Shown in pieces: positions 322 to 29,792 of a stretch of 59,846 nucleotides of DNA (positions are counted from its first letter, which is position 1; each line of letters opens with the position of its first letter). The stretch is from a phage. The stretch lies in the NCBI GenBank assembly GCA_011982905.1, contig GCA_011982905.1_4767.1; one strand, 5' to 3'. The notes beneath the pieces were generated by a model, which searched no databases, was not told where the DNA came from, and saw only the letters and a program-made list of their open reading frames with translations. The translations under genes and the position numbers were made by a program.

Positions 322-374
322 CCATGGAAATGAGCCATAGACAATATGTGTTGTGGCTCCTCCGACGTAATAGA

Positions 375-404: not shown

Positions 405-459
405 CCTGAAGAAGAGCTCCCGCCGCTTATCCCTACAACCATCGCAATGAGGAAGAAAG

Positions 460-966: not shown

Positions 967-969
967 TTT

Positions 970-2206: not shown

Positions 2207-2220
2207 GAGAGGATCTAAAT

Positions 2221-3144
2221 ATGGCTACAGGTTCACGTTATTCGTGTTACTACGTCAAAGAAGATGTAAGCAACACTACGCCAGCGAGCGCGAAGTTTAC
2301 CCCGTTCCGTGTGACCAGCTCCGGTCTGGACATTAATATTGCAACGCTGGAATCTGAAGAACTGCGCGATGATGCCGAAACTGCGGATTTCCGCCTCGGT
2401 GCCCGCAGTGTTGAAGGCACAGTAACGGGCGAAATGTCCTTCGGCACCTTCGATGATCTTATTGCTGCTGCACTTCGTGGGGAGTGGCAAGACAACGTCC
2501 TTAAAGGCGGTATTGTCCGTCAGTCGTTTACTTTCGTAGACTATAACGCAGATCTGCCGTCAGGTAAATATACAATTTATCGCGGTTGCGAAGTTAATAG
2601 CATGACTTTCTCATTGTCTGCGGAAAACATGACCACAGTGGAATTTGGCATTGTTGGCCGCTCGATGGAGATTGCGGAATCGCTCCCATCTGGTGCAACT
2701 ATCAAAGACCGTACGACTACTTCACCGATGGATGGTTTCTCCGGTCGCTTGCTGGAAAACGACGAAGAAATCAGCGTTATTACGGAAATCGGTCTTACCG
2801 TGGAAAACGATATTGCGCCACGCTTTGTTGTTGGTTCTAAGTTCTCCATTGAACCGTCCGCTGGTCGTCGTGCGGTAACTGGTACAGCTAATGTGTACTT
2901 CCTGGATAACAAGCTGCGTATGAAGTATCTGGATGAAGTGGAAACTTCAATCAAGTTTGATCTGATTGACCCAAGCAATCCGGAACAAAAATACACTGTG
3001 GAAATCCCTCGCGTGAAATTCACTGAAGCTCCGCGTCCTATTGACGGTGAAGGGGATATCATGCTTAATATGGGCTACCGCGGATTGCTGGACCCAACAA
3101 CCGCAAGTTCCATCAAAATTACCCGCGTTGTAGCGGGAGCCTAA
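2221..3144 (+). CDS. major tail (tube) protein
   Basis: 307-aa ORF with strong RBS immediately upstream of the chaperone and tape measure genes; Ser/Thr/Gly-rich beta-type composition. Confidence 0.6.
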   Translation: MATGSRYSCYYVKEDVSNTTPASAKFTPFRVTSSGLDINIATLESEELRDDAETADFRLGARSVEGTVTGEMSFGTFDDLIAAALRGEWQDNVLKGGIVRQSFTFVDYNADLPSGKYTIYRGCEVNSMTFSLSAENMTTVEFGIVGRSMEIAESLPSGATIKDRTTTSPMDGFSGRLLENDEEISVITEIGLTVENDIAPRFVVGSKFSIEPSAGRRAVTGTANVYFLDNKLRMKYLDEVETSIKFDLIDPSNPEQKYTVEIPRVKFTEAPRPIDGEGDIMLNMGYRGLLDPTTASSIKITRVVAGA

Positions 3145-3153
3145 GGATAAGAA

Positions 3154-3561
3154 ATGACCGACACCAAAAAAGCCAAAGTTGCAGTAGCTAAAAGCTTCCG
3201 TGATTTTAAAACTGTGAGCCGGGCTAACGACCCGGCAAACACTAAGCCAATGAATGTGGTTATTCCTGGTGTAGGCGACACCGGCGAAAAACTCTACATT
3301 CGTAGCCGCTACTGCACAGAGTACCGTGATGCCGAACTGAAAGCACAGCGTCAACTGTTGGCGCTTATGCAGGGTAAAGATGGTGAAGTAACGGATGCTA
3401 TGAAGGAAGATATCCTTACCCGTTCACTGTGTAACCTTGTAGCAGGTTGGACTTTTGACGAGCCACCAACTGTTGACAACGTGTTTGAGTTCTTGACGGA
3501 GAACCCAACTGTCCGAGAAGACCTTAACGTATTTGCCGCTAAAGATAGTAATTTTTTCTAA
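3154..3561 (+). CDS. tail assembly chaperone (lambda G-like)
   Basis: 135-aa acidic ORF between tail tube and tape measure genes; ends ...DSNFF* within a T6 run. Confidence 0.65.
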   Translation: MTDTKKAKVAVAKSFRDFKTVSRANDPANTKPMNVVIPGVGDTGEKLYIRSRYCTEYRDAELKAQRQLLALMQGKDGEVTDAMKEDILTRSLCNLVAGWTFDEPPTVDNVFEFLTENPTVREDLNVFAAKDSNFF

Positions 3562-11327: not shown

Positions 11328-12293
11328 TTAATACATATTTGGTATAGCTATGAGCGGTGTTGAGATCACCACGTTACGACCGGGCATTTGGAATTGTTGT
11401 CGCGAGTAGTTGCCTACCACGCGGTTTCTTGCAGCACCTACCACGTTATCTGCCATGCGAATCCCGTTCATGCGAATATGATTATAACCTCCGTTGTTCT
11501 CAATAAGCGTACCTGTGTATGCAAGTTGTATTAAGCTGTTACCAATATTTTGCCAGCCTGCGCTAAGATCTACTGTTCCGTTGAATACAAAAGGCTTCTT
11601 AACCGTGGAGAACGTAACCTGTCCCGCGCTGTTTGTCATGGTAATACCATCACCAGGCTGTGGGGGAGTGTTATTAAATATTACTAATTCCATTCCAACA
11701 GAAGCCGCTACGTCATCAATTCCACCATATGCTGCGTTGCGAACAATAATATTCGAACCATCAAAACCTACTGATACGTTAGGGTCGTTCCAGCGAGCAA
11801 ACGGAACACCACCGACAGGTAATGGCATACTGCCGTTAACCCATACGTACTGGGAATACTGACAAGTCATGAGAAAGGCTGCGTTGGATATTGCTGTGAA
11901 GTCCGTGGAGTTAGCCACAAATAGACCCTCGTTTCGCGTTCCTACCGGTAGCAGTTCCATAATCACCCCTGCCCATTGCGGCAGTCCGCTATAGGCACCC
12001 AGTCCGTCCGCACCTCGCAACGTCACCCCACCGTTACCGTTTCGAGTTACAGACGTTACATACATTGGATCAGGGATAACTAGCGTCTGATCAAATACTT
12101 CCAGTACTTCAACTGGGTTAGTCATAATAACGACATGCTGCGATCCTGGCGTCAGAGGTGTATTGATGGTTAGTGTTTTGTCAGATTGACATCGCTGATT
12201 GAAGTTAGCGCAAAAAGACGGGGCTCTCAATCCTGCTGTTATTTGCATTGCAGGTCTACCGTCATTGTAGTTTATATAAATACCCTCTGGCAT
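11328..12293 (-). CDS. hypothetical beta-rich protein encoded antisense within the tail module
   Basis: ATG at 12293 preceded by GGAG; 321 aa, Gly/Asn/Thr/Val-rich; own divergent promoter region and convergent terminator. Confidence 0.5.
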   Translation of the reverse strand: MPEGIYINYNDGRPAMQITAGLRAPSFCANFNQRCQSDKTLTINTPLTPGSQHVVIMTNPVEVLEVFDQTLVIPDPMYVTSVTRNGNGGVTLRGADGLGAYSGLPQWAGVIMELLPVGTRNEGLFVANSTDFTAISNAAFLMTCQYSQYVWVNGSMPLPVGGVPFARWNDPNVSVGFDGSNIIVRNAAYGGIDDVAASVGMELVIFNNTPPQPGDGITMTNSAGQVTFSTVKKPFVFNGTVDLSAGWQNIGNSLIQLAYTGTLIENNGGYNHIRMNGIRMADNVVGAARNRVVGNYSRQQFQMPGRNVVISTPLIAIPNMY

Positions 12294-12417
12294 AATTACT
12301 CCAACAATGTGGTTAAAGATGATAGACAATATTGTTTTATATTCTAATTTAATTTACCATATTTATATGCCATAGTGCATCCATTAATTGATCAACTCTG
12401 CGAAACAAGAGGTAAAA

Positions 12418-14526
12418 ATGGCAACTCGTTTATATGGTATTCTGAAGGATGGTTTAAATAAACCGATTGTTAACGCTACCGTCGCCCTTTTAGCAAAAGG
12501 GAACACAATTACCGTTCTTAATGGTAGTGAGGCTGTATTTCGTACAGACGGAGAAGGTTCCTATAATGTAACTGTGCAAGCAGGGCATTACAAAGTGATC
12601 ATTGGACCACAGGGTCTTGAGCCTTATAAAGCTGGTGAGATAGTTATTTATTCCGACAGCCCTGAAGGTTCGCTAAACGGATATTTAATCAACTGGGCTC
12701 CGGAAGAATTAACTCCGGACGTTATCAAACAAGTCCAGCAACTTGTGGCTAACTCTGAAGAATATGCTCTGCAAGCTGGTCGCTCTGCTGCCGCAGCAAA
12801 CGCAGATGCTACGGACGCTCGCAATAGTAAGGCTTCCGCTGCTCAATCTGCTTCGGATGCACTTGTCTATAAAAATGATGCCAAAGCTAGCGAAGACGCT
12901 GCTAAACAAGCACAAGCTGGAGCTGCTGGTTCTGCTAACACTGCGACCCAAGCTGTAACCACAATTCAAGGTCTTAAATCTGACGTTGAGCAGTTAAAAA
13001 CAGATACACAGGGTATTAAGAATAGCGCAGTAACGGAAACTACCGCGCTAAAAGACGCTGCTGCTGCTTCAGCTACGCAAGCAAGTAATAGTGCTACCGA
13101 AGCAGGACAACAAGCTGGTAACGCGGCTGGTAGCGCAAATAGCGCTAAGGGCGACGCGGACCGTGCAAAGGCAGAAGCAGACCGTGCGGAAGTTGCAGCT
13201 AACAGGGCCCCGGATCTTCAACCTTTCCCTGACGTATGGATTCCATTTAATGACTCGCTTGATATGCTTGCAGGTTACTCGCCAGGGTATAAGAAAATAA
13301 CAGTTGGTGAAGATGTTATTACAATGCCTTCTGATAAGGTTGTTAGTTTCTCGCGTGCGTCAAATGCAACATACATAAATAAGCATGGTGAATTTTGCAT
13401 TGCTAATATCGATGAACCTAGATTTGAAAAGCAAGGACTCTTGATTGAAGGCCAGAGGACAAACCACATAACTTACAGCAATGACCCAGCGTCATTGAAT
13501 AGTGATAAGCATCGTAGCGACGTTACCTACGGTATCGATAAATATGGATTTACCTATAGTACCGCAACCGCAAATGAAAACGGTCAAGGTGATACACCTT
13601 CACTATTTTATTGCGAATACAATAACAACATATATTGTGAACAGAACGAATACGCAACCTTATCTATTAGAGTAAAAGCGAGTAATATTTCCATAATTCC
13701 TCAATTCTATGCGTTAGGAGAAGATAATGCCCTTATTCTTGTTGTAAGATCTATAGTGTCGTGCGACACAGGGGAGGTGACATCTACACTCGAAGCTAGA
13801 GGAACCGTAACACACAGAATTATCAAAGAAGATAACGGATGGCTGAAGGTTGAAATAATATGTAAATTTTCCGATATTGCAGGTGCTATGATTGGGAGTA
13901 TTAACTATGCCCGCGGCTCTAACGGGGATAACGTGCAAGTTGGGGATACAATATCATTTTGTACTCCGCAATTTGAAAAGGGTTTTTGTGCATCCTCCTT
14001 CATTATTACGGGAAGCACGCCTGCAACAAGGGCTCTGGATTATGTTACTATACCTGCAAGAAATAATTTCTCAGGAACGAATATTTCATTCCTTGCTGAG
14101 GTAAGTATTAACTGGGATAGCTTTGAATTAGTTAATACATACCCGATGATAATGGATAACAGTAAATATAATATAGCAGGGGAATCTTTTGTATCGGAGA
14201 TGTTTATGGCTACAAGAGTGCCTAGCGTTTACTTTTTAAATAAGGAAACTGGACGTTCTACAGGCTCAAACGGAGCTTCATTTAGTGGTGTTGGCATCCC
14301 CTCCGTATGGGGTTTTATACATACAAAAAACGGGGATGTAACATCGTTTTTGAATGGTTTTAAGAATATAACATCCTCCGGTTCAACGTGGGAAGGACTA
14401 TCTCCGGATTCCTTGCTGGAGATAGGCGGTAGACCTTCCGATTCAACTAAATTATATGGACACATACGAAACCTTAGAATATGGAATCGAGTATTAACGG
14501 ATAGTCAAATGAGGGAGAAAGTTTAA
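12418..14526 (+). CDS. side tail fibre (lambda Stf-like N-terminus, LamG-like C-terminal domain)
   Basis: ATG at 12418 with AAGAGG RBS; N-terminal ~90 aa resemble the lambda Stf N-terminus (GILKDG..KP..N.T); Ala/Ser-rich collar; C-terminus ends LRIWNRVLTDSQM, typical of a concanavalin/LamG-like jelly roll. Confidence 0.8.
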   Translation: MATRLYGILKDGLNKPIVNATVALLAKGNTITVLNGSEAVFRTDGEGSYNVTVQAGHYKVIIGPQGLEPYKAGEIVIYSDSPEGSLNGYLINWAPEELTPDVIKQVQQLVANSEEYALQAGRSAAAANADATDARNSKASAAQSASDALVYKNDAKASEDAAKQAQAGAAGSANTATQAVTTIQGLKSDVEQLKTDTQGIKNSAVTETTALKDAAAASATQASNSATEAGQQAGNAAGSANSAKGDADRAKAEADRAEVAANRAPDLQPFPDVWIPFNDSLDMLAGYSPGYKKITVGEDVITMPSDKVVSFSRASNATYINKHGEFCIANIDEPRFEKQGLLIEGQRTNHITYSNDPASLNSDKHRSDVTYGIDKYGFTYSTATANENGQGDTPSLFYCEYNNNIYCEQNEYATLSIRVKASNISIIPQFYALGEDNALILVVRSIVSCDTGEVTSTLEARGTVTHRIIKEDNGWLKVEIICKFSDIAGAMIGSINYARGSNGDNVQVGDTISFCTPQFEKGFCASSFIITGSTPATRALDYVTIPARNNFSGTNISFLAEVSINWDSFELVNTYPMIMDNSKYNIAGESFVSEMFMATRVPSVYFLNKETGRSTGSNGASFSGVGIPSVWGFIHTKNGDVTSFLNGFKNITSSGSTWEGLSPDSLLEIGGRPSDSTKLYGHIRNLRIWNRVLTDSQMREKV

Positions 14527-14527
14527 A

Positions 14528-14794
14528 ATGAAAGATATTAATTTGCAATTTAAAGACGAAAAACATTATCGGGATGTTGTCATTAATAGTAACTGGCTTA
14601 AGACAAACTACGGTAAAGTGTTTGTAGATGAAATTGGTTTTGTCCTCATAGTAGATGACCCGAAAAGCAAGACGCCAGTTGTTATTGGTAAAGAAGGTTA
14701 TTATATAGATATAAGAATAATAGGAGACAATGTAGACTTGTCGGAACTTGAACAATTTATTATTAAGAATCCCTGTGTACGTAAATGGGCATAA
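14528..14794 (+). CDS. hypothetical protein (possible fibre accessory protein)
   Basis: 88-aa ORF with GAGGGAG RBS between two fibre genes. Confidence 0.4.
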   Translation: MKDINLQFKDEKHYRDVVINSNWLKTNYGKVFVDEIGFVLIVDDPKSKTPVVIGKEGYYIDIRIIGDNVDLSELEQFIIKNPCVRKWA

Positions 14795-14804
14795 GAGGTG
14801 ATCA

Positions 14805-16565
14805 ATGACTACTTATACTAATATTCCTCAGGACATTACAAAGCTTAAATTCGAAAAGATGGATAAAAGTAATAACTTATCTGATCTTGCGGACCGTGCC
14901 GCTGCGTGGTTAAACGTTCGACCAATTGGGTCTACACCCTTAGCTGGGGACCCCGTTAGCGATTATGATGCAACAACTAAACGTTGGGTAGAGAACCTGA
15001 TTAACACAGGTACAGTTGGTCCAACAATGAACGGGGTGATGAATTACGGGGTAGGGGATTTCCATCTTCGGGATAGTCGTGCATATATACAACCGTATGA
15101 AGTGGTCGCTGACGGTCAATTGCTTAATCGCGCTGACTGGCCTGAATTATGGAATTACGCTCAAATGGTGGGCGCTATAGATGATTCTGAATGGCTAGCT
15201 GATAAATTCCAGCGCGGCAAATATTCTAAGGGTGACGGAGCAACAACTTTTCGTGTCCCCGATAAAAACGGTGTTCAAGAAGGATCAGTCAGAGCGCTTT
15301 ATGGTCGTGGTGATGGCGGCGCTAGTAGTGCAAACGGACAAATATTCGAATCCGCTGCGCCTAATATTACAGGTTTTTTCACCACATATTCAGCTCAAAC
15401 CTATGGCCAGGTATTAGGTCAAACTGGTGGTTGTTTTAACGCAAACAATAATGCTTTCCCTGAAGGAAAAGGCGATGGAATCCCTCCAGGGACTACAGCT
15501 CTTGCTGGACGTTACAACACCTGTGACTTCAATGCTTCAATTTCAAGTCCAATTTACGGCGCATCCACTGATGAAATCCTTACGCGCAACTTTGTCGGTG
15601 TGTGGGTAATCCGTGCGTCAGGTGGGTTTGTTGCGGCAAATACATCATGGAGTGTAATAAACGCTGATGCTGTCAAACCTTCTTCTGGAACAATTGTAAG
15701 AGGGGGTAGTGTAAAATCAGAATACAAGATAGGTACGACTACCACACATCAAGCGTATTTGCAATCTTACGGAAAGATTGATGGATTGAGCAGCGAATCA
15801 GGGGCGGTGTTATCAAATGGTGTTCAGGAATGGGCGTTCAGTCAAGATGGTACATTACGCCTTCCAAACGCAGAATTTCAGATCGGGACATTGAGAACTG
15901 ATGGAGCGCTACAGGTTGACGCATACATACGAGCAAAAGACTTCGTTGCACAGCCGTTAAACTCTGTCGGCGTTTCTGCTATAGAAAGAAACGCCATGAG
16001 GATGATAAACTATGCAAATGTTGGTGAAGGGTATTTTATAAACTCTATAAGTGGCGATTGGTACGATGGAAGCTGGATTCTTGGTGGGATTCGCTCTGGT
16101 AGCACGTTGTTAGATAGGGCACAGCTTAATGTCTACGGAGGAAATGGATCAGCTGGGTCTTATCTTTTTGGGTCGGACGGTATAGCAAAATGTCAAGAAT
16201 GGAGAAGCTTATCTGATAAACGAATTAAAAGCAATATTGAGCGTATAGATAACCCACTATCTAAGATGAGAAACATCAAAGGCGTTAAATGGACATTGGA
16301 AACAAATGGGTCAGTTGGGTATGGATTTATTGCTCAGGATGTAGAGAAGGATTTCCCTGAAGCAGTATCCGAAACAAAGTCCTCTCCTGTTACCTTACGC
16401 AATGGTTCATCCGTGACTGATGTAAAGTCTGTAAACACTTCCGGTATAGCCGCAGCGCTACATCATGAAGCAATTCTTGCTTTGATGCAAAAAGTGGAGA
16501 ACCTAGAAGCGGAATTAGCTGCACTAAAAGAAGCGAATGGTTCACAGCAAACTAACCTTCCATAA
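14805..16565 (+). CDS. tail fibre with C-terminal intramolecular chaperone (peptidase S74-like) domain
   Basis: 586 aa; C-terminal SDKRIKSNIERIDNPL...VKWTL...GFIAQDVE motif typical of the autoproteolytic chaperone domain of phage fibres, followed by a coiled coil. Confidence 0.75.
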   Translation: MTTYTNIPQDITKLKFEKMDKSNNLSDLADRAAAWLNVRPIGSTPLAGDPVSDYDATTKRWVENLINTGTVGPTMNGVMNYGVGDFHLRDSRAYIQPYEVVADGQLLNRADWPELWNYAQMVGAIDDSEWLADKFQRGKYSKGDGATTFRVPDKNGVQEGSVRALYGRGDGGASSANGQIFESAAPNITGFFTTYSAQTYGQVLGQTGGCFNANNNAFPEGKGDGIPPGTTALAGRYNTCDFNASISSPIYGASTDEILTRNFVGVWVIRASGGFVAANTSWSVINADAVKPSSGTIVRGGSVKSEYKIGTTTTHQAYLQSYGKIDGLSSESGAVLSNGVQEWAFSQDGTLRLPNAEFQIGTLRTDGALQVDAYIRAKDFVAQPLNSVGVSAIERNAMRMINYANVGEGYFINSISGDWYDGSWILGGIRSGSTLLDRAQLNVYGGNGSAGSYLFGSDGIAKCQEWRSLSDKRIKSNIERIDNPLSKMRNIKGVKWTLETNGSVGYGFIAQDVEKDFPEAVSETKSSPVTLRNGSSVTDVKSVNTSGIAAALHHEAILALMQKVENLEAELAALKEANGSQQTNLP

Positions 16566-22517: not shown

Positions 22518-23470
22518 TAGACACGTTCTCCAATTAATACACCGCGAAGATTTTCCCCAAAGAATGCGCAAGGTTGCGGATATAAACTAAAGTCCGCAGT
22601 CTTAACCACATTCTCGAGTAATAACAGGATGTCGATATTGTAAACTCCCGTTATTGATCTGTCCTGCAATACGAAGCTTGCACCTTCTGCATCATCGTAA
22701 TGAGTACGCGCTAGACCGTTTTCAATATATACGCGAGGACGATCTTCCGCAAAAGGTTTGATTTTATGCAAGCCCTCAAAAAGACCTGGATCAACAGGAT
22801 GTGCATTGCATTGAACATTTAAAATACGACGTATATCGGGCCACTCCGCATCAATAAGCTGTGTCCGCAACCAGCGACCTTCCGGATAATGAAACGTTAC
22901 ATTATTCTTACTAACCTGAATATGTGTCGGGTTAGCCTTAATGCGCAATATTTCTTTAATTGCAACGGAAGGTATTATGCAGTCTATAGGGAACTGATTG
23001 CCGAACCAGTATTCCGCAATGGTGACGTTATTTGTAGCAAACAGGCTACCGTTATTAATTAGGATGCCACAAGCCCACGCACGAGATGCATCCGAGCCTA
23101 CAAACGGAGCAACGGACTTCACACCATGAACGAAGCGAGCACCGTCTATTTCGTACAAATCGCCTTCAGGGAATACATGCGGAGTTTCTTTATCGATGCA
23201 GCGTATAGCAACACGAAACGGGCCTGACTTAATATTCAGCTTACCGTTAGCCATCATTGTTAGCTGCACTGTTTCATCGCAGTTTGAAATAGCCTTGATC
23301 ATTGGACCCGCTTCGGGCTTACAATCAATATCCAGCTCAATAGGGCTACCCAGTGCAATAACACCGTTAAAGCCTTGTACCTGCCCGTCACGAATAAGAA
23401 AACTGGTAAGCCCTTCTACCAGTTCTTTCTTTGCTACTGAGCCTTGAACAAATTTAAGAGCGTCTAACAT
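22517..23470 (-). CDS. DnaN-like sliding clamp homologue (putative processivity factor)
   Basis: 317 aa; LIDAEWPDIRRIL matches the conserved VDGRFPDYRRVLP segment of bacterial beta clamps as recalled; lies immediately upstream of the polymerase. Confidence 0.5.
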   Translation of the reverse strand: MLDALKFVQGSVAKKELVEGLTSFLIRDGQVQGFNGVIALGSPIELDIDCKPEAGPMIKAISNCDETVQLTMMANGKLNIKSGPFRVAIRCIDKETPHVFPEGDLYEIDGARFVHGVKSVAPFVGSDASRAWACGILINNGSLFATNNVTIAEYWFGNQFPIDCIIPSVAIKEILRIKANPTHIQVSKNNVTFHYPEGRWLRTQLIDAEWPDIRRILNVQCNAHPVDPGLFEGLHKIKPFAEDRPRVYIENGLARTHYDDAEGASFVLQDRSITGVYNIDILLLLENVVKTADFSLYPQPCAFFGENLRGVLIGERV

Positions 23471-23697
23471 TAGCGATCCTCGATTGCTCTAATTGTGGTT
23501 AAGTCTAATTCACAGGTTGGAGGTGATCCATAAAGCCCTATTTGTCTTCCTTGCGCATTAAACCATGTACCGGACTGATCTTTCCATTGCTTAGGGGTCT
23601 TGTGGAGGAATACAACTCTGTTTTCACCGTAGTAATTAATTCTCACTCCTTTGTGAGTGTATTTACGTTTACCTTTTGGTCTTCTTAAGTTAGCCAT
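23470..23697 (-). CDS. hypothetical small basic protein
   Basis: 75 aa, between clamp-like gene and dpdA. Confidence 0.4.
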   Translation of the reverse strand: MANLRRPKGKRKYTHKGVRINYYGENRVVFLHKTPKQWKDQSGTWFNAQGRQIGLYGSPPTCELDLTTIRAIEDR

Positions 23698-24617
23698 CAG
23701 AACAACTCCATTACACGATCACGGAACGTGCCGTCATGGGTAGCATTAATATTTGCAGCAATTACACCATACGCCCATAAATTGAAGGCAGCACGTGATT
23801 CATAGATTGTTGATAACCGTTCGTAAGTAAAACCGTTTTGCTCAAGGTATTTAAGGACAGCATCCTGTTCAATTTCAGTTAGCGTTGAAACATGCTTACC
23901 AAAATGATGGCGGTCTGGTGACTTATCGGACACGCGCATTGGGCCCCACGGAGGAGTAACCACACTTCCAAACGCTGCCGCTTGAATCCAGGAGGATGAG
24001 TCACAGCTATACCACGGATAACGCTCCATGATGGTAGTGGACGTAATACCAAATGCATGAAGCTTAATCTTAGGACGACCGCTACCGTCGCAAATGTATT
24101 TGTCCCACATGCGGTCCAGCCAAGTTTTAAGCGTGCCCGTTGAACGCCCTACCATGCCCCCGATCGTGATATATTCGTAGTTCTTCATGTAATATTCAAG
24201 ATAGCGGAAGTCCTCACCAAAGTGAAAGCACGGTAACGGTTTAGCACCGCGTGCTTCCATTTCAAGCTGATTACGGTATGTTTGCAGCGGATCACCAATA
24301 CCGTCGAGCACCGACGCCATTACAGCACCATCTTCTACCCGCAAAATGTCTTTATTACGCTTGATGTACTCGCAGTATTCAACAATATCAATGTGAGCAC
24401 CCAAAGAGTGCGCAGAGAATGCACCGGAGTCGAGAAACACTTTAGCGCCATCTGCACGCATTTGATCAACATACTTCTGACGCCCAACGTAGTGGTATGA
24501 TTCCAAAATATTTGGAAGGCTATTAACAATGTCTTTTTCCCGATCGTTTAACTTTTCATATCGTTGTTGACCAGCTTTATAGCCGTTGGTATATACTGCC
24601 GCTACATATAACTTCAT
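23697..24617 (-). CDS. dpdA: DpdA, tRNA-guanine transglycosylase-like DNA 7-deazaguanine transglycosylase
   Basis: 306 aa; TGT-like fold motifs (FLDSGAF, ITIGGMVG); clustered with folE-queD-queC-queE. Confidence 0.7.
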   Translation of the reverse strand: MKLYVAAVYTNGYKAGQQRYEKLNDREKDIVNSLPNILESYHYVGRQKYVDQMRADGAKVFLDSGAFSAHSLGAHIDIVEYCEYIKRNKDILRVEDGAVMASVLDGIGDPLQTYRNQLEMEARGAKPLPCFHFGEDFRYLEYYMKNYEYITIGGMVGRSTGTLKTWLDRMWDKYICDGSGRPKIKLHAFGITSTTIMERYPWYSCDSSSWIQAAAFGSVVTPPWGPMRVSDKSPDRHHFGKHVSTLTEIEQDAVLKYLEQNGFTYERLSTIYESRAAFNLWAYGVIAANINATHDGTFRDRVMELF

Positions 24618-24696
24618 ATCTTAAATAAACCTCCAATGACTAAAAAGCCCATACCAGTATTATGACCGATATGGGCTTGATCTGTAAAGCTATCTA

Positions 24697-25335
24697 TTAT
24701 TTACAAGCTTCAAGGAACTCACGGCGCCATTCTTTACCAATATCGCTACCATGCTCCAGTTCTGTAGCGCCCCGGAATGCTTTGGTAATAGTACTCGAGC
24801 CACAAACCTGCTTGATTCCTCTTGACTCCATGCACATATGTTTGGCGTCAATATAAACACATACAGCTTTCGGATTTAAATGCTCTTCAATAGCGTCAGC
24901 AATCTGGTTAGTTAGACGCTCTTGCACTTGCAAGCGACGGCTAAAAGCATCCACAACGCGAGACAGCTTACTGAGCCCCACGATGCGACCGTTAGGAACA
25001 TACCCCACGACAGCGCGACCGATAATAGGGGCCATATGGTGTTCACAATGACTGTAAACAGGAATATCACGGACAATGACCATTTCATTGGTGTTTTCCG
25101 CCCCGTCTTCAAAGGTCTTAAATAACCCAGCAATATCTACATTGTAACCGCCGAACCATGTAGCATAGGCTTTAGCGACACGGTCTGGAGTCTCTGCTAA
25201 TCCTGGACGTAATTTAGTGCAATCTTCAATCTGAGTTAGTAAACTATGCACCGCGCGAGCAATACGAAATTGAGTACCTTCGTTATCAATAGTAAATTTT
25301 GACATGGTTTGCAGTTTCCTTGTTAATGTGGTCAT
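24697..25335 (-). CDS. folE: GTP cyclohydrolase I
   Basis: 212 aa; SHCEHHMAPI and surrounding segment match the FolE active-site region. Confidence 0.85.
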   Translation of the reverse strand: MTTLTRKLQTMSKFTIDNEGTQFRIARAVHSLLTQIEDCTKLRPGLAETPDRVAKAYATWFGGYNVDIAGLFKTFEDGAENTNEMVIVRDIPVYSHCEHHMAPIIGRAVVGYVPNGRIVGLSKLSRVVDAFSRRLQVQERLTNQIADAIEEHLNPKAVCVYIDAKHMCMESRGIKQVCGSSTITKAFRGATELEHGSDIGKEWRREFLEACK

Positions 25336-25336
25336 A

Positions 25337-25840
25337 TTACAGGCTATAGTTTACGTGACATTTCGAAGTTTCTTCGATGGTGCATTCTACAAGTTGAACA
25401 CCATGTTCGTCAAGCAGTTGCGGACCAATTACGTTTACCATGTATGCAGCCAGGTTTTCCGCGGTTGGGTTGAATGGTAAAGATACCATAGAATCCAGAA
25501 AATTTATTTGTTCTTTAGCTGAAATAAACTCCCCACAATCGTCCGCAAAACCAACAACGGACTTTAAACCTTCTATTAAAACATCCTTTTCCCAGTGCAA
25601 AAACTTATGATCCCAATTATTTTCCAACCACTGACAGAGCGTAGTTTTAACCACACTGAAGTCGATAACCCGTCCAACGTCGTCCAGCAAAATACTATTC
25701 ATTTCTTGCGACCCTTTTTTCGGTGCAACCTTAAAGTGAAACTTATAGTTGTGACCATGAAGGTGACGACACTTGCTTTCATGCCCTACAACACGATGTC
25801 CAGCGCAAATTTCATGTGAACGAATTACTGTATAGCTCAT
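25337..25840 (-). CDS. queD: 6-carboxy-5,6,7,8-tetrahydropterin synthase
   Basis: 167 aa; CxxHGHxY motif (CRHLHGHNYKF) typical of QueD/PTPS. Confidence 0.8.
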   Translation of the reverse strand: MSYTVIRSHEICAGHRVVGHESKCRHLHGHNYKFHFKVAPKKGSQEMNSILLDDVGRVIDFSVVKTTLCQWLENNWDHKFLHWEKDVLIEGLKSVVGFADDCGEFISAKEQINFLDSMVSLPFNPTAENLAAYMVNVIGPQLLDEHGVQLVECTIEETSKCHVNYSL

Positions 25841-26382
25841 TTTAATACCTCTTTAGACTGTTCGATTTCTAACGCACGCTGTGCGGATGCAATAATATCT
25901 TTCAAGTCTTCTACCAGACTTTTATGACCGCGTTCGCCAGGCTGCAACGCCTTTTTAATCAAATGTTGTAAAGCTGGGTTAGTTGTCTTCCAAGCTTCCA
26001 AGACATCATACACGTCCACGATGCATTTTACAACATTGCCTTTTTGATCTTTACCATAAATAACTTTCTGATATTTATTCATGGGAATTTTAGATGGTTC
26101 GCATTTCATAAAAATTGCGGTTTTGTCGGTTCGCCAATTGGGCAAACTCCCTTCAATAGCTTGGTTGACGTAATCTTCCGCAACAATATAACGCCAGGCT
26201 ATGATATCCCGAGAACGCACTTCTTCAGGATGTCCTGGGTTTATATCCCAATCCCATCCGTTAAATTGATTCTTAACGTGTGTGCCGTCGCGCAAACGAA
26301 CTTCAAACTTTTCATTGCGAAGAAAGATAGGCATTCCTTTCCCATCGTGCAGGTGCCAGATTTTATTAAGATTATCTTTCAT
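25837..26382 (-). CDS. hypothetical protein inside the 7-deazaguanine cluster
   Basis: ATG at 26382 immediately after the upstream stop; the tracked start at 26427 is TTG; no family recognised. Confidence 0.45.
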   Translation of the reverse strand: MKDNLNKIWHLHDGKGMPIFLRNEKFEVRLRDGTHVKNQFNGWDWDINPGHPEEVRSRDIIAWRYIVAEDYVNQAIEGSLPNWRTDKTAIFMKCEPSKIPMNKYQKVIYGKDQKGNVVKCIVDVYDVLEAWKTTNPALQHLIKKALQPGERGHKSLVEDLKDIIASAQRALEIEQSKEVLK

Positions 26383-26384
26383 TT

Positions 26385-26864
26385 TTACGCTCTCGCTGTA
26401 CGTGAATGAACTTCGTAAACAATCCAAAGGATAGCGGACGCTGTGAACTTACTTAAGCTCATTGCTACCATAGATCCCGGATTAACAATACCTATAATAC
26501 TTAAGAACACAATGGAGTCAATCGGTACAGCTACCAAAGAGCTAATAAATACACGTTGATGAAACGGCTTCTTAGTAATCGTGTATACTACATAGTCCGC
26601 AAACTCACTAAGCGCAAAAGACGCAACGGATGCAACTACAACCGCAGGATTACCGAACACCCAGCTAAGGATGCAACCAACAATCATTGCAGGGATGACG
26701 CCTTTGCCAGCGTTACGCTGTGCGTAATCACGCAGAACAAAGATAAGGCCTACAAAGAAAGCCATCATGGGGACTACGCCAAGTGGCGTATTAAGCATCG
26801 GAAGGTAGGAAAAGCCCAGGTTTACGAATGTAATTGCAGCCAGATAAGCAACGATAAATTTCAT
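26385..26864 (-). CDS. polytopic membrane protein (possible 7-deazapurine precursor transporter)
   Basis: 159 aa with 4-5 hydrophobic segments; sits between queD and queC; transporter role inferred from context only. Confidence 0.45.
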   Translation of the reverse strand: MKFIVAYLAAITFVNLGFSYLPMLNTPLGVVPMMAFFVGLIFVLRDYAQRNAGKGVIPAMIVGCILSWVFGNPAVVVASVASFALSEFADYVVYTITKKPFHQRVFISSLVAVPIDSIVFLSIIGIVNPGSMVAMSLSKFTASAILWIVYEVHSRTARA

Positions 26865-26984
26865 ACTTTTGTTCTCCAGTTTTAACAGCGTTATTCGCTG
26901 GTTGTTGGGTTTAAAAGCTTTAGTAGTATAGTTGGGTTACCGCACCCTAAACAATGCGCTAGCGGTGCGGTTTTCGCGGTAAGA

Positions 26985-27692
26985 TCAAGCTTTGCTAATA
27001 AATTCGCTGTACCCTTTAGCACGAAGTTTACACGCTGGACATTCCCCGCAACCGTATCCCCAGTCATGCAGAGTACGACGGACGCCATTATAGCACGTAT
27101 GGGACTGCTCAATTACTGTGGTTAAGAAACCAACCTTATCCGCCAGCTCAAACGTTTCCGCTTTGTTTAAACGCATAAGCGGAGTAACAAAATGGATATC
27201 TGTTTCATATCCAACGTTTAACGTAGCTTCAAGCAAATCTACAAACTGCTGGCGGCAATCCGGATAACCGCTATAGTCCGTTTCACAGACGCCCGTAACC
27301 ACATATCGCGCGCCAACCTTCTGCGCGTAGGCGTGCGCGGTAGTCAGGAAAAGAGCATTACGGTTGGGCACAAAGCTTGCCGGAAGGTTGTTGTGCTGTT
27401 CGTGATGTTCGTTAACATCACCTTCGTTCCCGATTAAAGCGCTATTGCCAATTTGTTTCAAAGCAGGTAATTCAAAGACAACAAACGGGACATCGTGCTC
27501 TTTACAAATTTGATTAGCACAAGCCAGCTCAATGTTATGACGTTGACCGTATGCAAAACCAATAGCGTAGACCTTATCATAGTTATTAAGTGCAAGACCT
27601 AGGCATGTTACGCTGTCCTGGCCGCCAGACAGGACCACAACGGCGGAGTTGTGATTTTTTACAGGGAATACCAGTTTATCTAGTTTGTTCAT
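26985..27692 (-). CDS. queC: 7-cyano-7-deazaguanine synthase
   Basis: 235 aa; PP-loop VVLSGGQDS; C-terminal Cys cluster CYNG...CGECPAC. Confidence 0.85.
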   Translation of the reverse strand: MNKLDKLVFPVKNHNSAVVVLSGGQDSVTCLGLALNNYDKVYAIGFAYGQRHNIELACANQICKEHDVPFVVFELPALKQIGNSALIGNEGDVNEHHEQHNNLPASFVPNRNALFLTTAHAYAQKVGARYVVTGVCETDYSGYPDCRQQFVDLLEATLNVGYETDIHFVTPLMRLNKAETFELADKVGFLTTVIEQSHTCYNGVRRTLHDWGYGCGECPACKLRAKGYSEFISKA

Positions 27693-27693
27693 T

Positions 27694-27882
27694 TTAGAAA
27701 CCTTTAAGACTAATATTGAGGTTAATGACTACTTGTTCAACTACATCTTCAGAGGTCATCTGACGCTTATGAATTTCAAGCTCCGAGTGTATTTTCTTAG
27801 ATGCAGCACGGCAAATAGCGTCATTCAACTCGTCCTGTAAACGTTGAATCTTCTGCATAAGGATTACAGTCTCTTCATTCAT
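27694..27882 (-). CDS. hypothetical small protein
   Basis: 62 aa between queC and queE; helical charged composition. Confidence 0.4.
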   Translation of the reverse strand: MNEETVILMQKIQRLQDELNDAICRAASKKIHSELEIHKRQMTSEDVVEQVVINLNISLKGF

Positions 27883-28087
27883 CTTCTACACCTTTAATAT
27901 AGCAAGGGTTGATTGTTACGTTTGACATCACAATTGGATGATTGCGCGCCCCGATTGTACTAACATGATTAATATCTAATTCAACATGCACGCCCTGCAT
28001 AGTAGCGTGAGCAATTGCAGAATTAAGTTTTTCTACCAGCTCAGTGATCATTTCCTGATGCTGTTTCGCTTCTTCCAAAGTGATCAT
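27875..28087 (-). CDS. hypothetical small protein
   Basis: 70 aa between queC and queE. Confidence 0.4.
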   Translation of the reverse strand: MITLEEAKQHQEMITELVEKLNSAIAHATMQGVHVELDINHVSTIGARNHPIVMSNVTINPCYIKGVEDE

Positions 28088-28794
28088 TATTCCACCCCAA
28101 TATATTTGTGAACCTGAAGCTGTAACGTGTACCCATGTTTCATACAGCTTTGGACAACTGCTTGGATGTTACTGTGGTTAAGGTCTTTATCCTGCTCGTC
28201 CATTGGCTGTAAATATATCTTACCCTTGAACCCCTTCGGAGGTCTAGCAATAAATGGGGTAGCCTGATGATCTAATGCCTGAAGCGGTAAACCGTCTTCC
28301 ACGTTTACACAGCACGCTTTAAGCACATATTTAAATGCGTTTGCGCGGTACAGCACAGTAGGATGAATTTTTGTAGTCTTAGGACTGCATACAATGACAG
28401 GTAGCTGGGAAAAGTTTTTAGGTAAAGGCATAGACCCATTCGTTTCAATTTGTACAACATACCCGCGCGATAACAGTTGTTCGACAAATGGGTTAATTTG
28501 CTGGCGGAATGGTTCACCCCCAGTAATAACCACAAGTGAGGTGCTATTGCCAGACTCTAGTTTACGGCTTTCAATCAAGCGCATGATATCAACAATGTGA
28601 TAAAGAGAACGACCAACAGTATAATCCGTATCACATCCTGGGCATTGCAGGTTACACCCAGCAAGACGCACAAATACAGCAGGCTGGCCGCAGAATGGAC
28701 CTTCACCCTGAATGGTAGAGAATACCGAATGCACGTCTAAATACATATCATTTTCTTTAGAACGAGACTCGGGAGCTTGTTGATTAATATTCAT
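28087..28794 (-). CDS. queE: 7-carboxy-7-deazaguanine synthase (radical SAM)
   Basis: 235 aa; QGEGPFCGQPAVFVRLAGCNLQCPGCDT contains the CxxxCxxC radical-SAM motif; AGAGGA RBS. Confidence 0.85.
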   Translation of the reverse strand: MNINQQAPESRSKENDMYLDVHSVFSTIQGEGPFCGQPAVFVRLAGCNLQCPGCDTDYTVGRSLYHIVDIMRLIESRKLESGNSTSLVVITGGEPFRQQINPFVEQLLSRGYVVQIETNGSMPLPKNFSQLPVIVCSPKTTKIHPTVLYRANAFKYVLKACCVNVEDGLPLQALDHQATPFIARPPKGFKGKIYLQPMDEQDKDLNHSNIQAVVQSCMKHGYTLQLQVHKYIGVE

Positions 28795-28863: not shown

Positions 28864-29664
28864 TTACAAGCCGTTCAGGGCTTCCGGTACTGGTACAGGT
28901 ACGCGACCAGTCACACCATTAAATTTCTTCCAGCGTGCATACTGGGTTTTAACGGTATCTTCGTTCAGCTCGTGACGAGCAGCGAGGTTCAGAACATAAG
29001 AGATCGGAGCAGGCTGACCCAGCGTAGCACTAATCTGATCCATCAGAGCCCATGCGTGACCGCAGGAAGTTTCCGGCTGAGGACGACGAACACCATTCTG
29101 TTCCGGCATACGGTTAGCTTCTTTTTCCTTCTCGCGAAGCTCTTTAGCGCGGGCTTTTTCTGCTTCTTTTTCTGCCTGTTTTGCAGCGCGGATCTTATCT
29201 TTGAAGCCTTTAATAGTAGCTTCCAGACCATCGATCAGGGCTTGAGCAGAAGTTACAGCACCGGACAGGTCTTCACCTTTAGACTTCTTAACGACAGCTT
29301 TCAGCTCTTTTAGAGCTTCTTTAATGGTCTTCAGGTTTGCAGATCCCTGAGTTTCCGCTGCGGTAAGCTGTTCAACAGTGCTTTCGTCGGTAATGGTAGC
29401 CAAAGCGTTTTTCAGACCTTCAGCAGCATTAGCAATCGCATTAAATTTGTTTTCCGCTTCTGTGCGAATCTCAGCTTGTTTCTTTTCAGCGGCAGCTTTT
29501 TTCTCTGCTTCTTTTTTCTCTTTTGCTACGCGTGCAGCTTCAGCAGCAGCGGCTTTCTTAGCTTCTGCATCATTCACAGTAGCTTCTTTCTTTGCAGGTT
29601 TAGCGGATTTTGCAGCGGCAGCGGCGGCTGCGGCAGCGGCTTTTTTATCTTCAATGTTGCTCAT
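28864..29664 (-). CDS. Lys/Ala-rich low-complexity protein (histone H1-like N-terminus)
   Basis: ATG at 29664 with GGAG RBS (the tracked start at 29673 is GTG); N-terminal KAAAAAAAAAAKSAKPAKKE repeats; globular C-terminal ~80 aa. Confidence 0.5.
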   Translation of the reverse strand: MSNIEDKKAAAAAAAAAAKSAKPAKKEATVNDAEAKKAAAAEAARVAKEKKEAEKKAAAEKKQAEIRTEAENKFNAIANAAEGLKNALATITDESTVEQLTAAETQGSANLKTIKEALKELKAVVKKSKGEDLSGAVTSAQALIDGLEATIKGFKDKIRAAKQAEKEAEKARAKELREKEKEANRMPEQNGVRRPQPETSCGHAWALMDQISATLGQPAPISYVLNLAARHELNEDTVKTQYARWKKFNGVTGRVPVPVPEALNGL

Positions 29665-29792
29665 TCTCTTCACTCCGAATTGTTATGGGGTTCGTTTGTT
29701 ACCAACGGGGTTAAATGTACCAAAGGATTTTGTGACACGCAACCCCTTATCTGAATATTTTTAAAAATATTTTTGATCAAGCTTAGAACTTA

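What the first reader, a model, noticed from the sequence alone, without database searches (positions are those of the whole stretch)
23470..28794. 7-deazaguanine DNA-modification cluster (dpdA-folE-queD-queC-queE) with five unassigned ORFs inside it
Seen in sequence: FolE (SHCEHHMAP), QueD (CxxHGH), QueC (SGGQDS PP-loop plus Cys cluster), QueE (CxxxCxxC radical SAM) and a TGT-like DpdA on one strand within 5.3 kb. Established knowledge: these enzymes make preQ0 from GTP, and DpdA-type transglycosylases insert 7-deazaguanine bases into DNA, which shields phage genomes from restriction. Inference: this phage replaces part of its guanine. QueC is of standard length with no amidotransferase domain, pointing to dPreQ0, but five embedded ORFs (23470..23697, 25837..26382, the membrane protein 26385..26864, 27694..27882, 27875..28087) have no assigned role and could encode extra tailoring, precursor uptake or target-selection functions.
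Basis: partly seen in the sequence, partly recalled or inferred. Interest (0 to 1): 0.7.

Follow-up and report, generated by a model that had tools for sequence, protein, structure and literature searches.

The report
Known phage dPreQ0 DNA-modification gene cluster
This is the standard, already published gene cluster by which Seuratvirus coliphages (phage CAjan and relatives) replace about a quarter of their DNA guanines with the base preQ0 to escape restriction enzymes. The small unassigned genes inside it are the same ones the literature already lists as unknown.

Summary
Window 23470-28794 (minus strand) holds ten back-to-back genes: ORF1, DpdA, FolE, QueD, ORF5, a YhhQ-like membrane protein, QueC, ORF8, ORF9 and QueE. 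The window is a circularly permuted, complete Seuratvirus genome, and the cluster is about 91-92% identical in DNA to slur01, KurtStettler and Seurat. Its DpdA is 94.8% identical to CAjan DpdA. For CAjan, dPreQ0 (about 25-32% of G, at GA and GGC) and the need for dpdA, folE and queC are shown by experiment. So the dPreQ0 reading is supported by homology, and the finding is already known.

Of the five unassigned ORFs, the membrane protein is the putative preQ0 transporter, a borderline family match that is dispensable in CAjan. ORF5 combines a variable N-terminal half with a very conserved roughly 75-residue C-terminal domain. That domain occurs in 709 phage records, most of them without DpdA, and is absent near dpdA in five related phages from other hosts. 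The ORF9 family sits after queE in three lineages but also occurs in a phage without the pathway. ORF8 is a weak paralog of ORF9. ORF1 is a genus-restricted orphan. CAjan carries all five and makes only dPreQ0, so extra tailoring is unlikely. One side observation is an unusually conserved leader upstream of yhhQ.

The parts
23470..23697 (-). ORF1, 75 aa, basic N-terminus (CAjan gp34 ortholog). It shares one base with the dpdA stop upstream and with the sliding-clamp start downstream. Function unknown.
   Evidence: Coordinates. Matches PHROG 38388 at 6.5e-53. tblastn finds it in 36 phage records, all Seuratvirus-type, with 32% identity in Hafnia phage yong3 at the same position. Only 3 genuine clusters appear among 1.84 billion representative proteins. 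Synonymous to non-synonymous codon differences are 12:6 against CAjan.
23697..24617 (-). DpdA (DpdA1 type), 306 aa: the DNA guanine transglycosylase that swaps G for preQ0.
   Evidence: Matches PHROG 887 at 8.3e-95. It is 94.8% identical to CAjan DpdA, which is genetically required for dPreQ0 (PMC6884629). Residues D63 (in DSGAFS), D105, H132, H187, D206/S207 and G217 are invariant across 10 phage DpdAs.
24618..24696 (-). 79-nt folE-dpdA spacer with a hairpin followed by a T-run, a promoter-like site and a GGAGG ribosome-binding site. The small gene CAjan gp36 that sits here in relatives is missing.
24697..25335 (-). FolE, GTP cyclohydrolase I, 212 aa.
   Evidence: Matches PF01227 at 1.2e-62 and NF006825 at 7.8e-61 (above its cut-off); SHCEHHMAP is present.
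25337..25840 (-). QueD, 6-carboxytetrahydropterin synthase, 167 aa.
   Evidence: Matches PF01242 at 2.7e-23 and PHROG 2389 at 5e-53; motif CRHLHGH.
25837..26382 (-). ORF5, 181 aa (CAjan gp40 ortholog). It has a variable N-terminal small beta domain, a disordered linker, and a highly conserved C-terminal domain (about residues 100-178) made of a beta-hairpin plus three helices. Function unknown.
   Evidence: Searches show invariant Y104, D123, Y125, D126, PALQH 136-140, K143, K144, G149, R151, H153, K154. The C-domain model has pLDDT 91.9. There is no PDB relative by sequence or fold. The domain occurs in 709 phage records.
26385..26864 (-). YhhQ-like membrane protein, 159 aa, about 5 hydrophobic segments: putative preQ0 salvage transporter (CAjan gp41 ortholog).
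   Evidence: Matches PF02592 Vut_1 at 8.7e-6 (26.6 bits against a cut-off of 27.2) and TIGR00697 at 3.2e-5 (below its cut-off). Annotated as preQ0 transporter in KurtStettler, SA126VB and CAjan. Hydropathy. BLASTP against E. coli YhhQ is not significant.
26865..26984 (-). 120-nt queC-yhhQ spacer: a strong hairpin, then a leader of about 75 nt that is far more conserved than the flanking genes.
   Evidence: about 93% identity to yong3 over window roughly 26852-26924, against an overall 73.6% for the whole aligned queC-yhhQ stretch. No Rfam family matches.
26985..27692 (-). QueC, preQ0 synthase, 235 aa, stand-alone with no amidotransferase domain.
   Evidence: Matches PF06508 at 9.2e-75 over residues 17-230 and TIGR00364 at 2e-72, above its cut-off. 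Only the QueC half of JenK1 Gat-QueC finds a match in the window.
27694..27882 (-). ORF8, 62 aa (CAjan gp43 ortholog), a weak paralog of ORF9. Function unknown.
   Evidence: BLASTP against ORF9 gives 3e-5. Found in 29 phage records, 27 of them Escherichia phages, and not detected in yong3.
27875..28087 (-). ORF9, 70 aa (CAjan gp44 ortholog), a conserved small protein directly downstream of queE. Function unknown. The 'radical SAM' label on some orthologs is spurious, since the protein has one Cys and no CxxxCxxC.
   Evidence: It is 95-99% identical across Seuratviruses. Homologs sit in the same queE|queC slot in yong3 (about 50% identity) and Providencia PSTCR7. A homolog also occurs in Nonanavirus PJ16, which has no pathway genes. 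Synonymous to non-synonymous differences are 16:1 against CAjan.
28087..28794 (-). QueE, radical-SAM 7-carboxy-7-deazaguanine synthase, 235 aa.
   Evidence: Matches PHROG 2076 at 1.6e-67 and TIGR04322, TIGR04508 and TIGR03365 at 1e-21 to 1e-28 (all below the equivalog cut-offs); motif CNLQCPGC.

Best explanation
The region is the Seuratvirus (CAjan-type) 7-deazaguanine DNA-modification module.

Inferred from established enzymology of these families: FolE, QueD, QueE and QueC convert GTP through H2NTP, CPH4 and CDG (with ADG as an intermediate) to preQ0.

Shown by experiment in CAjan and inferred here from 94.8% identity: DpdA exchanges guanine for preQ0 in double-stranded DNA after replication, at GA and GGC. 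In this genome that predicts about 28% of all G (about 63 per 1000 nt). The modification blocks many restriction enzymes.

The cluster lies on the same strand as, and directly upstream of, the sliding-clamp and DNA-polymerase genes, so it is placed to be expressed with the replication module.

The five unassigned ORFs are accessory and not part of the chemistry. The membrane protein is most likely a preQ0 salvage importer. ORF5 carries a domain of unknown function that is shuffled among the DNA-metabolism regions of enterobacterial phages. ORF9 and ORF8 (a tandem pair) and ORF1 are small, conserved early proteins of unknown role.
For: Enzyme assignments and motifs. The cluster is about 91-92% identical in DNA to 30 or more Seuratvirus genomes with the same gene order, and the window is a complete permuted Seuratvirus genome.

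Published experiments on CAjan: dPreQ0 at 70,628 per 10^6 nt, other deazaguanines below 6 per 10^6 nt, and a dpdA deletion that is unmodified and restriction-sensitive (PMC6884629). folE, queC and dpdA deletions lose modification, a yhhQ deletion does not, and the motifs are GA and GGC (PMC7544227).

GA plus GGC sites make up 28.2% of G in the window. The published figure for CAjan is 23.96% plus 4.28% (PMC10484667). No amidotransferase domain is present in the window, and the window-specific segments encode only tail fibres, a homing endonuclease and ORFs without family matches.

The unassigned ORFs are dispensable for the chemistry. CAjan has all five and makes only dPreQ0. The ORF5 C-domain is absent within 9 kb of dpdA in Pseudomonas HTN2, Vibrio 83AMN, Xanthomonas DoCa3, Providencia PSTCR7 and Sphingomonas MMDA13. 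It is present in 709 phage records against 236 with DpdA; for Salmonella phages the counts are 368 against 3. PJ16 has an ORF9 homolog but no pathway genes. CAjan gp36 and gp39 are simply missing from this window.
Against: There is no nucleoside or restriction data for this phage itself; everything rests on homology.

DpdA's link to the TGT superfamily could not be reproduced with HMMER or hhalign. There is no Pfam hit, the NCBIfam DpdA model scores only 0.0055, a DpdA profile finds no TGT in the PDB, and hhalign against E. coli Tgt aligns only DSGAFS with DSGGFQ at E 0.014.

The transporter assignment is weak, with HMM scores below the curated cut-offs and no pairwise similarity to E. coli YhhQ.

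The persistent placement of the ORF5 C-domain gene inside the cluster in four enterobacterial lineages, in three different positions, is compatible with some functional link. So is the ORF9-type gene after queE in three lineages.
Confidence: 0.9

Rival explanations
1. At least one small conserved ORF is a dedicated partner of a pathway enzyme. ORF1 might be a DpdA accessory factor that sets targets (GA plus GGC rather than GA only) or tethers DpdA to the clamp or replisome. ORF9 or ORF8 might be a partner of QueE or QueC.
For: ORF1 shares one base with dpdA upstream and with the clamp gene downstream, and it keeps that slot in the divergent yong3. An ORF9-type gene keeps the slot right after queE in Seuratvirus, yong3 and Providencia PSTCR7 and is as constrained as the enzymes (16 synonymous to 1 non-synonymous). 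CAjan, which has ORF1, modifies GA and GGC. iggy modifies GA only, and the iggy-like phage HTN2 has no ORF1 homolog.
Against: ORF1 evolves fast (32% identity in yong3, where DpdA is 85%) and is an orphan. Non-homologous small ORFs fill the same slots in HTN2, MMDA13 and 83AMN, and DoCa3, JenK1 and PSTCR7 have none after dpdA. PJ16 has an ORF9 homolog without any pathway gene. The motif correlation rests on two phages, and the published work assigns specificity to DpdA itself.
Confidence: 0.08
2. One of the unassigned ORFs is a tailoring enzyme, so the final base is not dPreQ0 but a derivative.
For: Unassigned genes inside related clusters have turned out to be tailoring enzymes in other phages, namely DpdL, DpdM and DpdN (PMC10516641). 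ORF5 has invariant His, Lys, Arg and Asp residues that could form an active site.
Against: CAjan encodes orthologs of all five ORFs and contains dPreQ0, with dADG, dG+, dPreQ1 and dQ all below 6 per 10^6 nt. ORF1, ORF8 and ORF9 are 62-75 aa with no enzyme-family match. The ORF5 C-domain is common in phages without DpdA.
Confidence: 0.03
3. The ORF5 C-terminal domain is a divergent DUF3310/SaV/T7 gp1.7-type module with a nucleotide-kinase-like or nucleotide-binding role, acting in nucleotide metabolism around the modification pathway.
For: Foldseek against viral models gives low-ranked hits to DUF3310, 'SaV-like' and 'nucleotide kinase' proteins, with probability about 0.98-1.0, TM about 0.55-0.6 and E about 0.1-0.3. 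T7 gp1.7 does carry DUF3310. The only hhalign match lines up LQHLIKKALQPGER with LGNILKYRLRAGKK.
Confidence: 0.1

Closest known systems
Escherichia phage CAjan 7-deazaguanine (dPreQ0) cluster, gp34-gp45 (NC_028776, 28,621-34,560)
   Same: Same genus, strand, gene order and neighbours (clamp and polymerase on one side, the Ala/Lys-rich gp46-like gene and the helicase on the other). Ten of CAjan's twelve genes have orthologs here at 55-99% amino-acid identity, including all five 'unassigned' ORFs.
   Different: The window lacks CAjan gp36 (68 aa, between dpdA and folE) and gp39 (107 aa, between queD and gp40). The FolE-QueD-ORF5 stretch is mosaic, at 82%, 76% and 55% aa identity, against 95-99% for the flanking DpdA, YhhQ-like, QueC and QueE genes and the clamp gene just outside the cluster.
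Nonagvirus (phage 9g, JenK1) dG+ cluster
   Same: Same synteny: QueE, QueC-type gene, QueD, FolE, DpdA, clamp, polymerase. DpdA is 69% identical. A protein with the ORF5 C-domain lies inside the cluster.
   Different: Nonagviruses carry the Gat-QueC fusion, which gives archaeosine (dG+). They have no detectable yhhQ-like, ORF1, ORF8 or ORF9 homolog in the JenK1 cluster region, and the C-domain protein sits between queE and gat-queC.
Pseudomonas phage iggy / HTN2-type dPreQ0 cluster (Iggyvirus)
   Same: [quoted passage not shown] The product is dPreQ0.
   Different: It has no yhhQ and no homologs of ORF1, ORF5, ORF8 or ORF9; unrelated small ORFs fill the same slots. The reported target motif is GA only.
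Bacterial Dpd restriction-modification system (dpdA-K)
   Same: Uses a DpdA-family transglycosylase to put preQ0 into DNA (PMC10164549, abstract listed).
   Different: In the bacterial system DpdA needs DpdB, DpdC converts dPreQ0 to dADG, and modification is sparse and coupled to restriction genes. None of these partners is encoded here. The phage DpdA1 is much shorter and scores only 15.6 bits against the bacterial DpdA model, whose cut-off is 200.

Membership tests
Phage DpdA1-type dPreQ0 DNA-modification cluster (Seuratvirus/CAjan type) | A DpdA1 transglycosylase gene | tested here: met
   94.8% aa identity to the genetically validated CAjan DpdA; PHROG 887 at 8.3e-95.
Phage DpdA1-type dPreQ0 DNA-modification cluster (Seuratvirus/CAjan type) | A complete preQ0 pathway: FolE, QueD, QueE and QueC with catalytic motifs | tested here: met
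   Pfam, NCBIfam and PHROG matches plus SHCEHHMAP, Cx3HGH, SGGQDS and Cx3Cx2C.
Phage DpdA1-type dPreQ0 DNA-modification cluster (Seuratvirus/CAjan type) | No amidotransferase (Gat-QueC, ArcS, QueF-L) and no further tailoring enzyme | tested here: met
   QueC is 235 aa with the QueC domain only. tblastn with JenK1 Gat-QueC finds only its QueC half. Segments not shared with KurtStettler encode tail fibres, an HNH endonuclease and ORFs without family matches. Models for DpdL, DpdM and DpdN were not available, so those were not searched directly.
Phage DpdA1-type dPreQ0 DNA-modification cluster (Seuratvirus/CAjan type) | dPreQ0 actually present in virion DNA at GA/GGC | not testable with these tools
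   Only a prediction is possible: 28.2% of G lie in GA or GGC.
tRNA-guanine transglycosylase (TGT) superfamily, for DpdA | Detectable homology to TGT or bacterial DpdA, and the catalytic Asp in a DSGGFQ-like motif | tested here: inconclusive
   No Pfam TGT hit. NF041059 DpdA scores E 0.0055 at 15.6 bits against a cut-off of 200. phmmer and a 10-sequence profile find no TGT in the PDB. hhalign against E. coli Tgt aligns the invariant DSGAFS with DSGGFQ, but only at E 0.014 and probability 3%.
YhhQ / Vut_1 (queuosine-precursor transporter) family, for ORF 26385-26864 | A family HMM score above the curated cut-off over most of the model | tested here: inconclusive
   PF02592 scores 26.6 bits against a cut-off of 27.2 and covers model positions 58-140 of 152. 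TIGR00697 scores 23.8 bits against 50.95. BLASTP against E. coli YhhQ gives E 1.3. The protein is 159 aa, against 221 aa for E. coli YhhQ, with about 5 hydrophobic segments.
YhhQ / Vut_1 (queuosine-precursor transporter) family, for ORF 26385-26864 | Transport of preQ0 or preQ1 | not testable with these tools
   The CAjan yhhQ deletion had wild-type modification (PMC7544227), which neither shows nor excludes transport.
DUF3310 / SaV / T7 gp1.7 family, for the ORF5 C-domain | A profile match to PF11753 or to gp1.7 homologs | tested here: not met
   No Pfam hit for ORF5 or any of 42 relatives. hhalign against T7 gp1.7 and against a 20-sequence DUF3310 alignment gives probabilities of 1.5% and 0.08%. 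Only weak fold hits were found.
preQ1 riboswitches (Rfam preQ1-I, -II, -III), for the yhhQ leader | A covariance-model match | tested here: not met
   No match at gathering thresholds in the whole window, none at E<=10 in 5.7 kb, and none at E<=10 in the 161-nt stretch alone.

The most novel reading that the evidence does not exclude
At least one of the small conserved proteins is a dedicated partner of a pathway enzyme. One option is ORF1, overlapping dpdA by one base, acting as a DpdA accessory factor that widens or sets its DNA target (GA plus GGC in CAjan-type phages, GA only in iggy) or couples it to the sliding clamp. The other is the ORF9 family, fixed directly after queE in three lineages, acting as a QueE or QueC partner.
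Probability: 0.08. Interest if true: 0.55.

Novelty: already known. Interest (0 to 1): 0.15.

Why it matters
7-Deazaguanine DNA modification is an established anti-restriction strategy, and it partly protects against Cas9. The CAjan cluster is its main genetic model. This window adds one more Seuratvirus genome with a slightly reduced, ten-gene version of that cluster.

The modest added value is comparative. Two of CAjan's six 'unknown' cluster genes (gp36, gp39) are absent here. The ORF5 C-domain is not specific to the pathway. The ORF9 family is the unassigned gene that best keeps its position. The yhhQ leader is a candidate regulatory element. Together these narrow down which unknown genes are worth knocking out.

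Tried and rejected
1. Known families for the four non-membrane ORFs. Pfam, NCBIfam and PHROGs gave only unnamed phage families. The 'radical SAM' label on the ORF9 PHROG and on CAjan gp44 is spurious.

3. DUF3310 / T7 gp1.7 relationship for the ORF5 C-domain. I suspected it from the motif and from weak BFVD hits, but hhalign does not support it.

4. Pathway specificity of the ORF5 C-domain. Rejected: 709 phage records carry the domain against 236 with DpdA, and it also sits in replication or recombination regions of the unrelated phages Itty13 and AhMtk13b, in the latter fused to a BRCT domain.

5. Remote homologs of ORF1 among 1.84 billion representatives. Only Seuratvirus-type proteins and one repeat-protein artefact were found.

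6. A preQ1 riboswitch or any other Rfam family in the cluster or the yhhQ leader: none. I tried to collect divergent leaders for covariation, but IMG/VR yielded only three near-identical copies, one chance hit, and one divergent phage in which yhhQ has no leader at all.

7. Independent confirmation that DpdA is TGT-like, by HMMER or hhalign: inconclusive.

8. tRNA genes in the window: none.

9. A hidden amidotransferase elsewhere in the window: none.

Full report
**What is there.** Window 23470-28794 carries ten closely packed minus-strand genes. In transcription order they are:
- QueE (28794-28087)
- ORF9 (28087-27875)
- ORF8 (27882-27694)
- QueC (27692-26985)
- a 120-nt spacer
- a YhhQ-like membrane protein (26864-26385)
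- ORF5 (26382-25837)
- QueD (25840-25337)
- FolE (25335-24697)
- a 79-nt spacer
- DpdA (24617-23697)
- ORF1 (23697-23470)

The sliding-clamp gene (23470-22517) and the DNA polymerase gene follow directly. The enzyme calls are solid:
- FolE matches PF01227 at 1.2e-62.
- QueD matches PF01242 at 2.7e-23.
- QueC matches PF06508 at 9.2e-75 and TIGR00364 at 2e-72.
- QueE matches PHROG 2076 at 1.6e-67 and several QueE NCBIfam models.

One correction: the QueD motif is Cx3HGH (CRHLHGH), not CxxHGH. DpdA has no Pfam hit but matches PHROG 887 at 8e-95.

**Where it comes from.** Megablast of the region finds 44 phage records. Thirty are 90-95% identical, and nearly all are Escherichia phages of the genus Seuratvirus (Queuovirinae), including slur01, KurtStettler, Seurat and Greed. 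CAjan turned up in the protein searches and is about 87-92% identical in DNA over the ungapped orthologous genes. Against KurtStettler the whole window is collinear but circularly permuted, with window 53350 equal to KurtStettler base 1, so the window is a complete genome. The published annotations give the same gene order and names: 7-deazaguanosine inserting enzyme DpdA, GTP cyclohydrolase FolE, QueD, preQ0 transporter YhhQ, dPreQ0 synthase QueC and QueE, with hypothetical proteins between them.

**What is already known.** Hutinet et al. 2019 (PMC6884629) found dPreQ0 in CAjan DNA at 70,628 per 10^6 nt, about 32% of G. All other deazaguanines were below 6 per 10^6 nt. A dpdA deletion removed the modification and made the DNA fully restriction-sensitive. 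Kot et al. 2020 (PMC7544227) describe the cluster as twelve genes, six assigned (folE, queD, queE, queC, yhhQ, dpdA) and six without function. They show that folE, queC and dpdA deletions lose modification while a yhhQ deletion does not, and they map the modification to GA and GGC. The window proteins are 94.8% (DpdA), 97.5% (YhhQ-like), 97.4% (QueC) and 97.4% (QueE) identical to CAjan's. No amidotransferase domain exists anywhere in the window. Segments not shared with KurtStettler encode tail fibres, a DUF6453 protein, an HNH/NUMOD4 endonuclease and small ORFs without family matches. The dPreQ0 interpretation is therefore supported by close homology to an experimentally characterised system, and the finding, unassigned ORFs included, is already in the literature. 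If CAjan's specificity holds, 28.2% of all G (62.8 per 1000 nt) lie in GA or GGC here. The published CAjan figure is 23.96% plus 4.28%.

**The five unassigned ORFs are real genes.** All have positional orthologs throughout the genus. All show more synonymous than non-synonymous codon differences.

**YhhQ-like protein, 26385-26864.**
- It has about five hydrophobic segments.
- It matches Vut_1 (PF02592) at 8.7e-6 and the queuosine-precursor transporter model TIGR00697 at 3.2e-5. Both scores fall below the curated cut-offs, and both matches cover only part of the model.
- It has no significant pairwise similarity to E. coli YhhQ.
- 'Putative preQ0 salvage transporter' is the best reading. It is dispensable in the laboratory.

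**ORF5, 181 aa.**
- It has two parts. The N-terminal half is variable, 55-81% identical among Seuratviruses. The C-terminal domain of about 75 residues is extraordinarily conserved, with consensus NKYxRxI..VDVYDVLxAWxxxNPALQHLIKKALQPGERGHK..DLxDIIASAxRAxELE, and is joined to many unrelated N-termini.
- On its own the domain models confidently (pLDDT 91.9) as a beta-hairpin plus three helices.
- In predicted viral structures the same domain appears in proteins labelled DNA ligase and phosphodiesterase (a weaker hit is labelled polynucleotide kinase/phosphatase), but one such 'ligase' is really this domain plus a BRCT domain.
- A suspected link to DUF3310 / SaV / T7 gp1.7 is not supported by profile comparison.
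- The domain occurs in 709 phage records, 368 of them Salmonella phages. DpdA occurs in 236 records, 3 of them Salmonella phages.
- A domain HMM finds it inside the deazaguanine cluster of CAjan, yong3, Nonagvirus JenK1 and an IMG/VR contig, in three different positions. It finds nothing within 9 kb of dpdA in Pseudomonas HTN2, Vibrio 83AMN, Xanthomonas DoCa3, Providencia PSTCR7 or Sphingomonas MMDA13.
- So it belongs to the gene pool of enterobacterial phages and their DNA-metabolism regions. It is not specific to the pathway.

**ORF9 (70 aa) and ORF8 (62 aa).**
- They are weak paralogs (E 3e-5).
- ORF9 is 95-99% identical across Seuratviruses.
- It has homologs in the same queE|queC slot in yong3 (about 50% identity) and in Providencia PSTCR7. 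It also has a homolog in Nonanavirus PJ16, whose genome has no FolE, QueC, QueD, QueE or DpdA.
- Unrelated small ORFs occupy this slot in HTN2 and 83AMN.

**ORF1 (75 aa).**
- It overlaps dpdA and the clamp gene by one base at each end.
- It is found only in Seuratvirus-type phages, with 32% identity in yong3.
- It has only three genuine relatives among 1.84 billion representative proteins.
- Non-homologous small ORFs sit after dpdA in HTN2 and MMDA13, and none in DoCa3, JenK1 or PSTCR7.

'Precursor uptake' fits the membrane protein. 'Extra tailoring' is very unlikely, because CAjan has all five ORFs and makes only dPreQ0. Related phages without them still have complete clusters, and iggy reportedly modifies about 97% of its GA sites. 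'Target selection' cannot be excluded for ORF1. The only hint is that CAjan, which has ORF1, uses GA plus GGC, while iggy uses GA only and the iggy-like HTN2 has no ORF1 homolog. ORF1 also evolves quickly for an enzyme subunit. Two further CAjan cluster genes, gp36 and gp39, are simply absent here, so they are not needed for a functional cluster in a natural isolate.

**Limits.** DpdA's membership of the TGT superfamily could not be confirmed independently with the tools available. Ten phage DpdAs share invariant DSGAFS, LD.IG and S.DSS motifs. hhalign places DSGAFS on the DSGGFQ motif of E. coli Tgt, which I recall (not verified here) contains the catalytic Asp, but only at E 0.014, and a profile search of the PDB finds no TGT. 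G217 is also invariant in these phage DpdAs, and a recent preprint reports that G217E in phage HK243 DpdA abolishes dPreQ0. I did not check whether the numbering corresponds. The functional call rests on near-identity to CAjan DpdA.

**Side observation.** The last 75 nt or so before the yhhQ-like start codon are about 93% identical between this phage and yong3. The whole aligned queC-yhhQ stretch is 73.6% identical. This leader contains a CAGCG/CGCUG hairpin whose loop varies while its stem does not. The predicted fold pairs CCCA with the UGG of the Shine-Dalgarno region, and the A-to-G change in KurtStettler keeps that pair as G-U. No Rfam family matches, preQ1 riboswitches included, even when only 161 nt are searched. 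Too few divergent copies exist to test covariation. It may be an ordinary conserved translation-initiation or processing region, or a regulatory RNA.

**Verdict.** This is an accurate first-stage observation of a well-characterised, published system. The score is low for novelty, and a few testable leads remain among the unknown genes.

Noticed in passing
window 26865-26940 (minus strand), upstream of the yhhQ-like gene: A non-coding leader of about 75 nt is about 93% identical to Hafnia phage yong3, while the whole aligned queC-yhhQ stretch is 73.6% identical. It has a hairpin with an invariant stem and a variable loop, and a predicted pairing that would cover the Shine-Dalgarno sequence. No Rfam family matches, preQ1 riboswitches included. 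This may be an undescribed cis-regulatory element.
   Followed up: partly
window 24602-24630 and 25837-25840, compared with CAjan gp36 and gp39: Two of the twelve genes of the published CAjan cluster are absent from this genome: gp36 (68 aa, between dpdA and folE) and gp39 (107 aa, between queD and gp40). This leaves a ten-gene version of the cluster.
   Followed up: partly
window 24697-26382 (FolE, QueD, ORF5 N-terminal half): This stretch is the mosaic part of the cluster. It is 55-91% aa identical to the three relatives compared (CAjan, KurtStettler, SA126VB), against 95-99% for DpdA, the YhhQ-like protein, QueC and QueE on either side and for the clamp gene next to the cluster. This suggests recombinational exchange within the cluster.
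   Followed up: partly
whole window; junction at 53349/53350: The window is a circular permutation of a complete Seuratvirus genome. Window 53350 corresponds to base 1 (terminase small subunit) of phage KurtStettler. No tRNA genes are present.
   Followed up: yes
window 11328-16565: The tail-fibre region differs from KurtStettler. It encodes a DUF6453 protein on the minus strand, a 712-aa fibre with phage_tail_N and a lectin-like end, and a 586-aa protein with a Peptidase_S74 chaperone domain. These are likely host-range determinants.
   Followed up: partly
window 50599-51069 (+): A 156-aa NUMOD4 / HNH_3 / HTH homing-endonuclease-like gene that is absent from KurtStettler.
   Followed up: partly
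window 28864-29673 (minus strand), just upstream of queE: A 269-aa protein with a long Ala/Lys/Glu-rich low-complexity N-terminal half. Its CAjan ortholog is annotated 'FtrA domain' protein. A strong terminator-like hairpin (28839-28816) and a promoter-like site follow before queE.
   Followed up: no
L028 (IMGVR_UViG_3300035670_000254), 46-3246: A more divergent phage contig has the order QueC, C-domain protein (226 aa, with a different N-terminus), YhhQ-like protein (61% identical), QueD, FolE. The C-domain gene and the yhhQ-like gene are swapped relative to Seuratvirus but still adjacent.
   Followed up: partly
L024 (Aeromonas phage AhMtk13b), 2923-4332: A protein annotated 'putative DNA ligase' gave no ligase-family match in the Pfam scan. 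It consists of the ORF5-type C-domain at its N-terminus and a BRCT domain at its C-terminus, so the annotation is probably wrong.
   Followed up: partly
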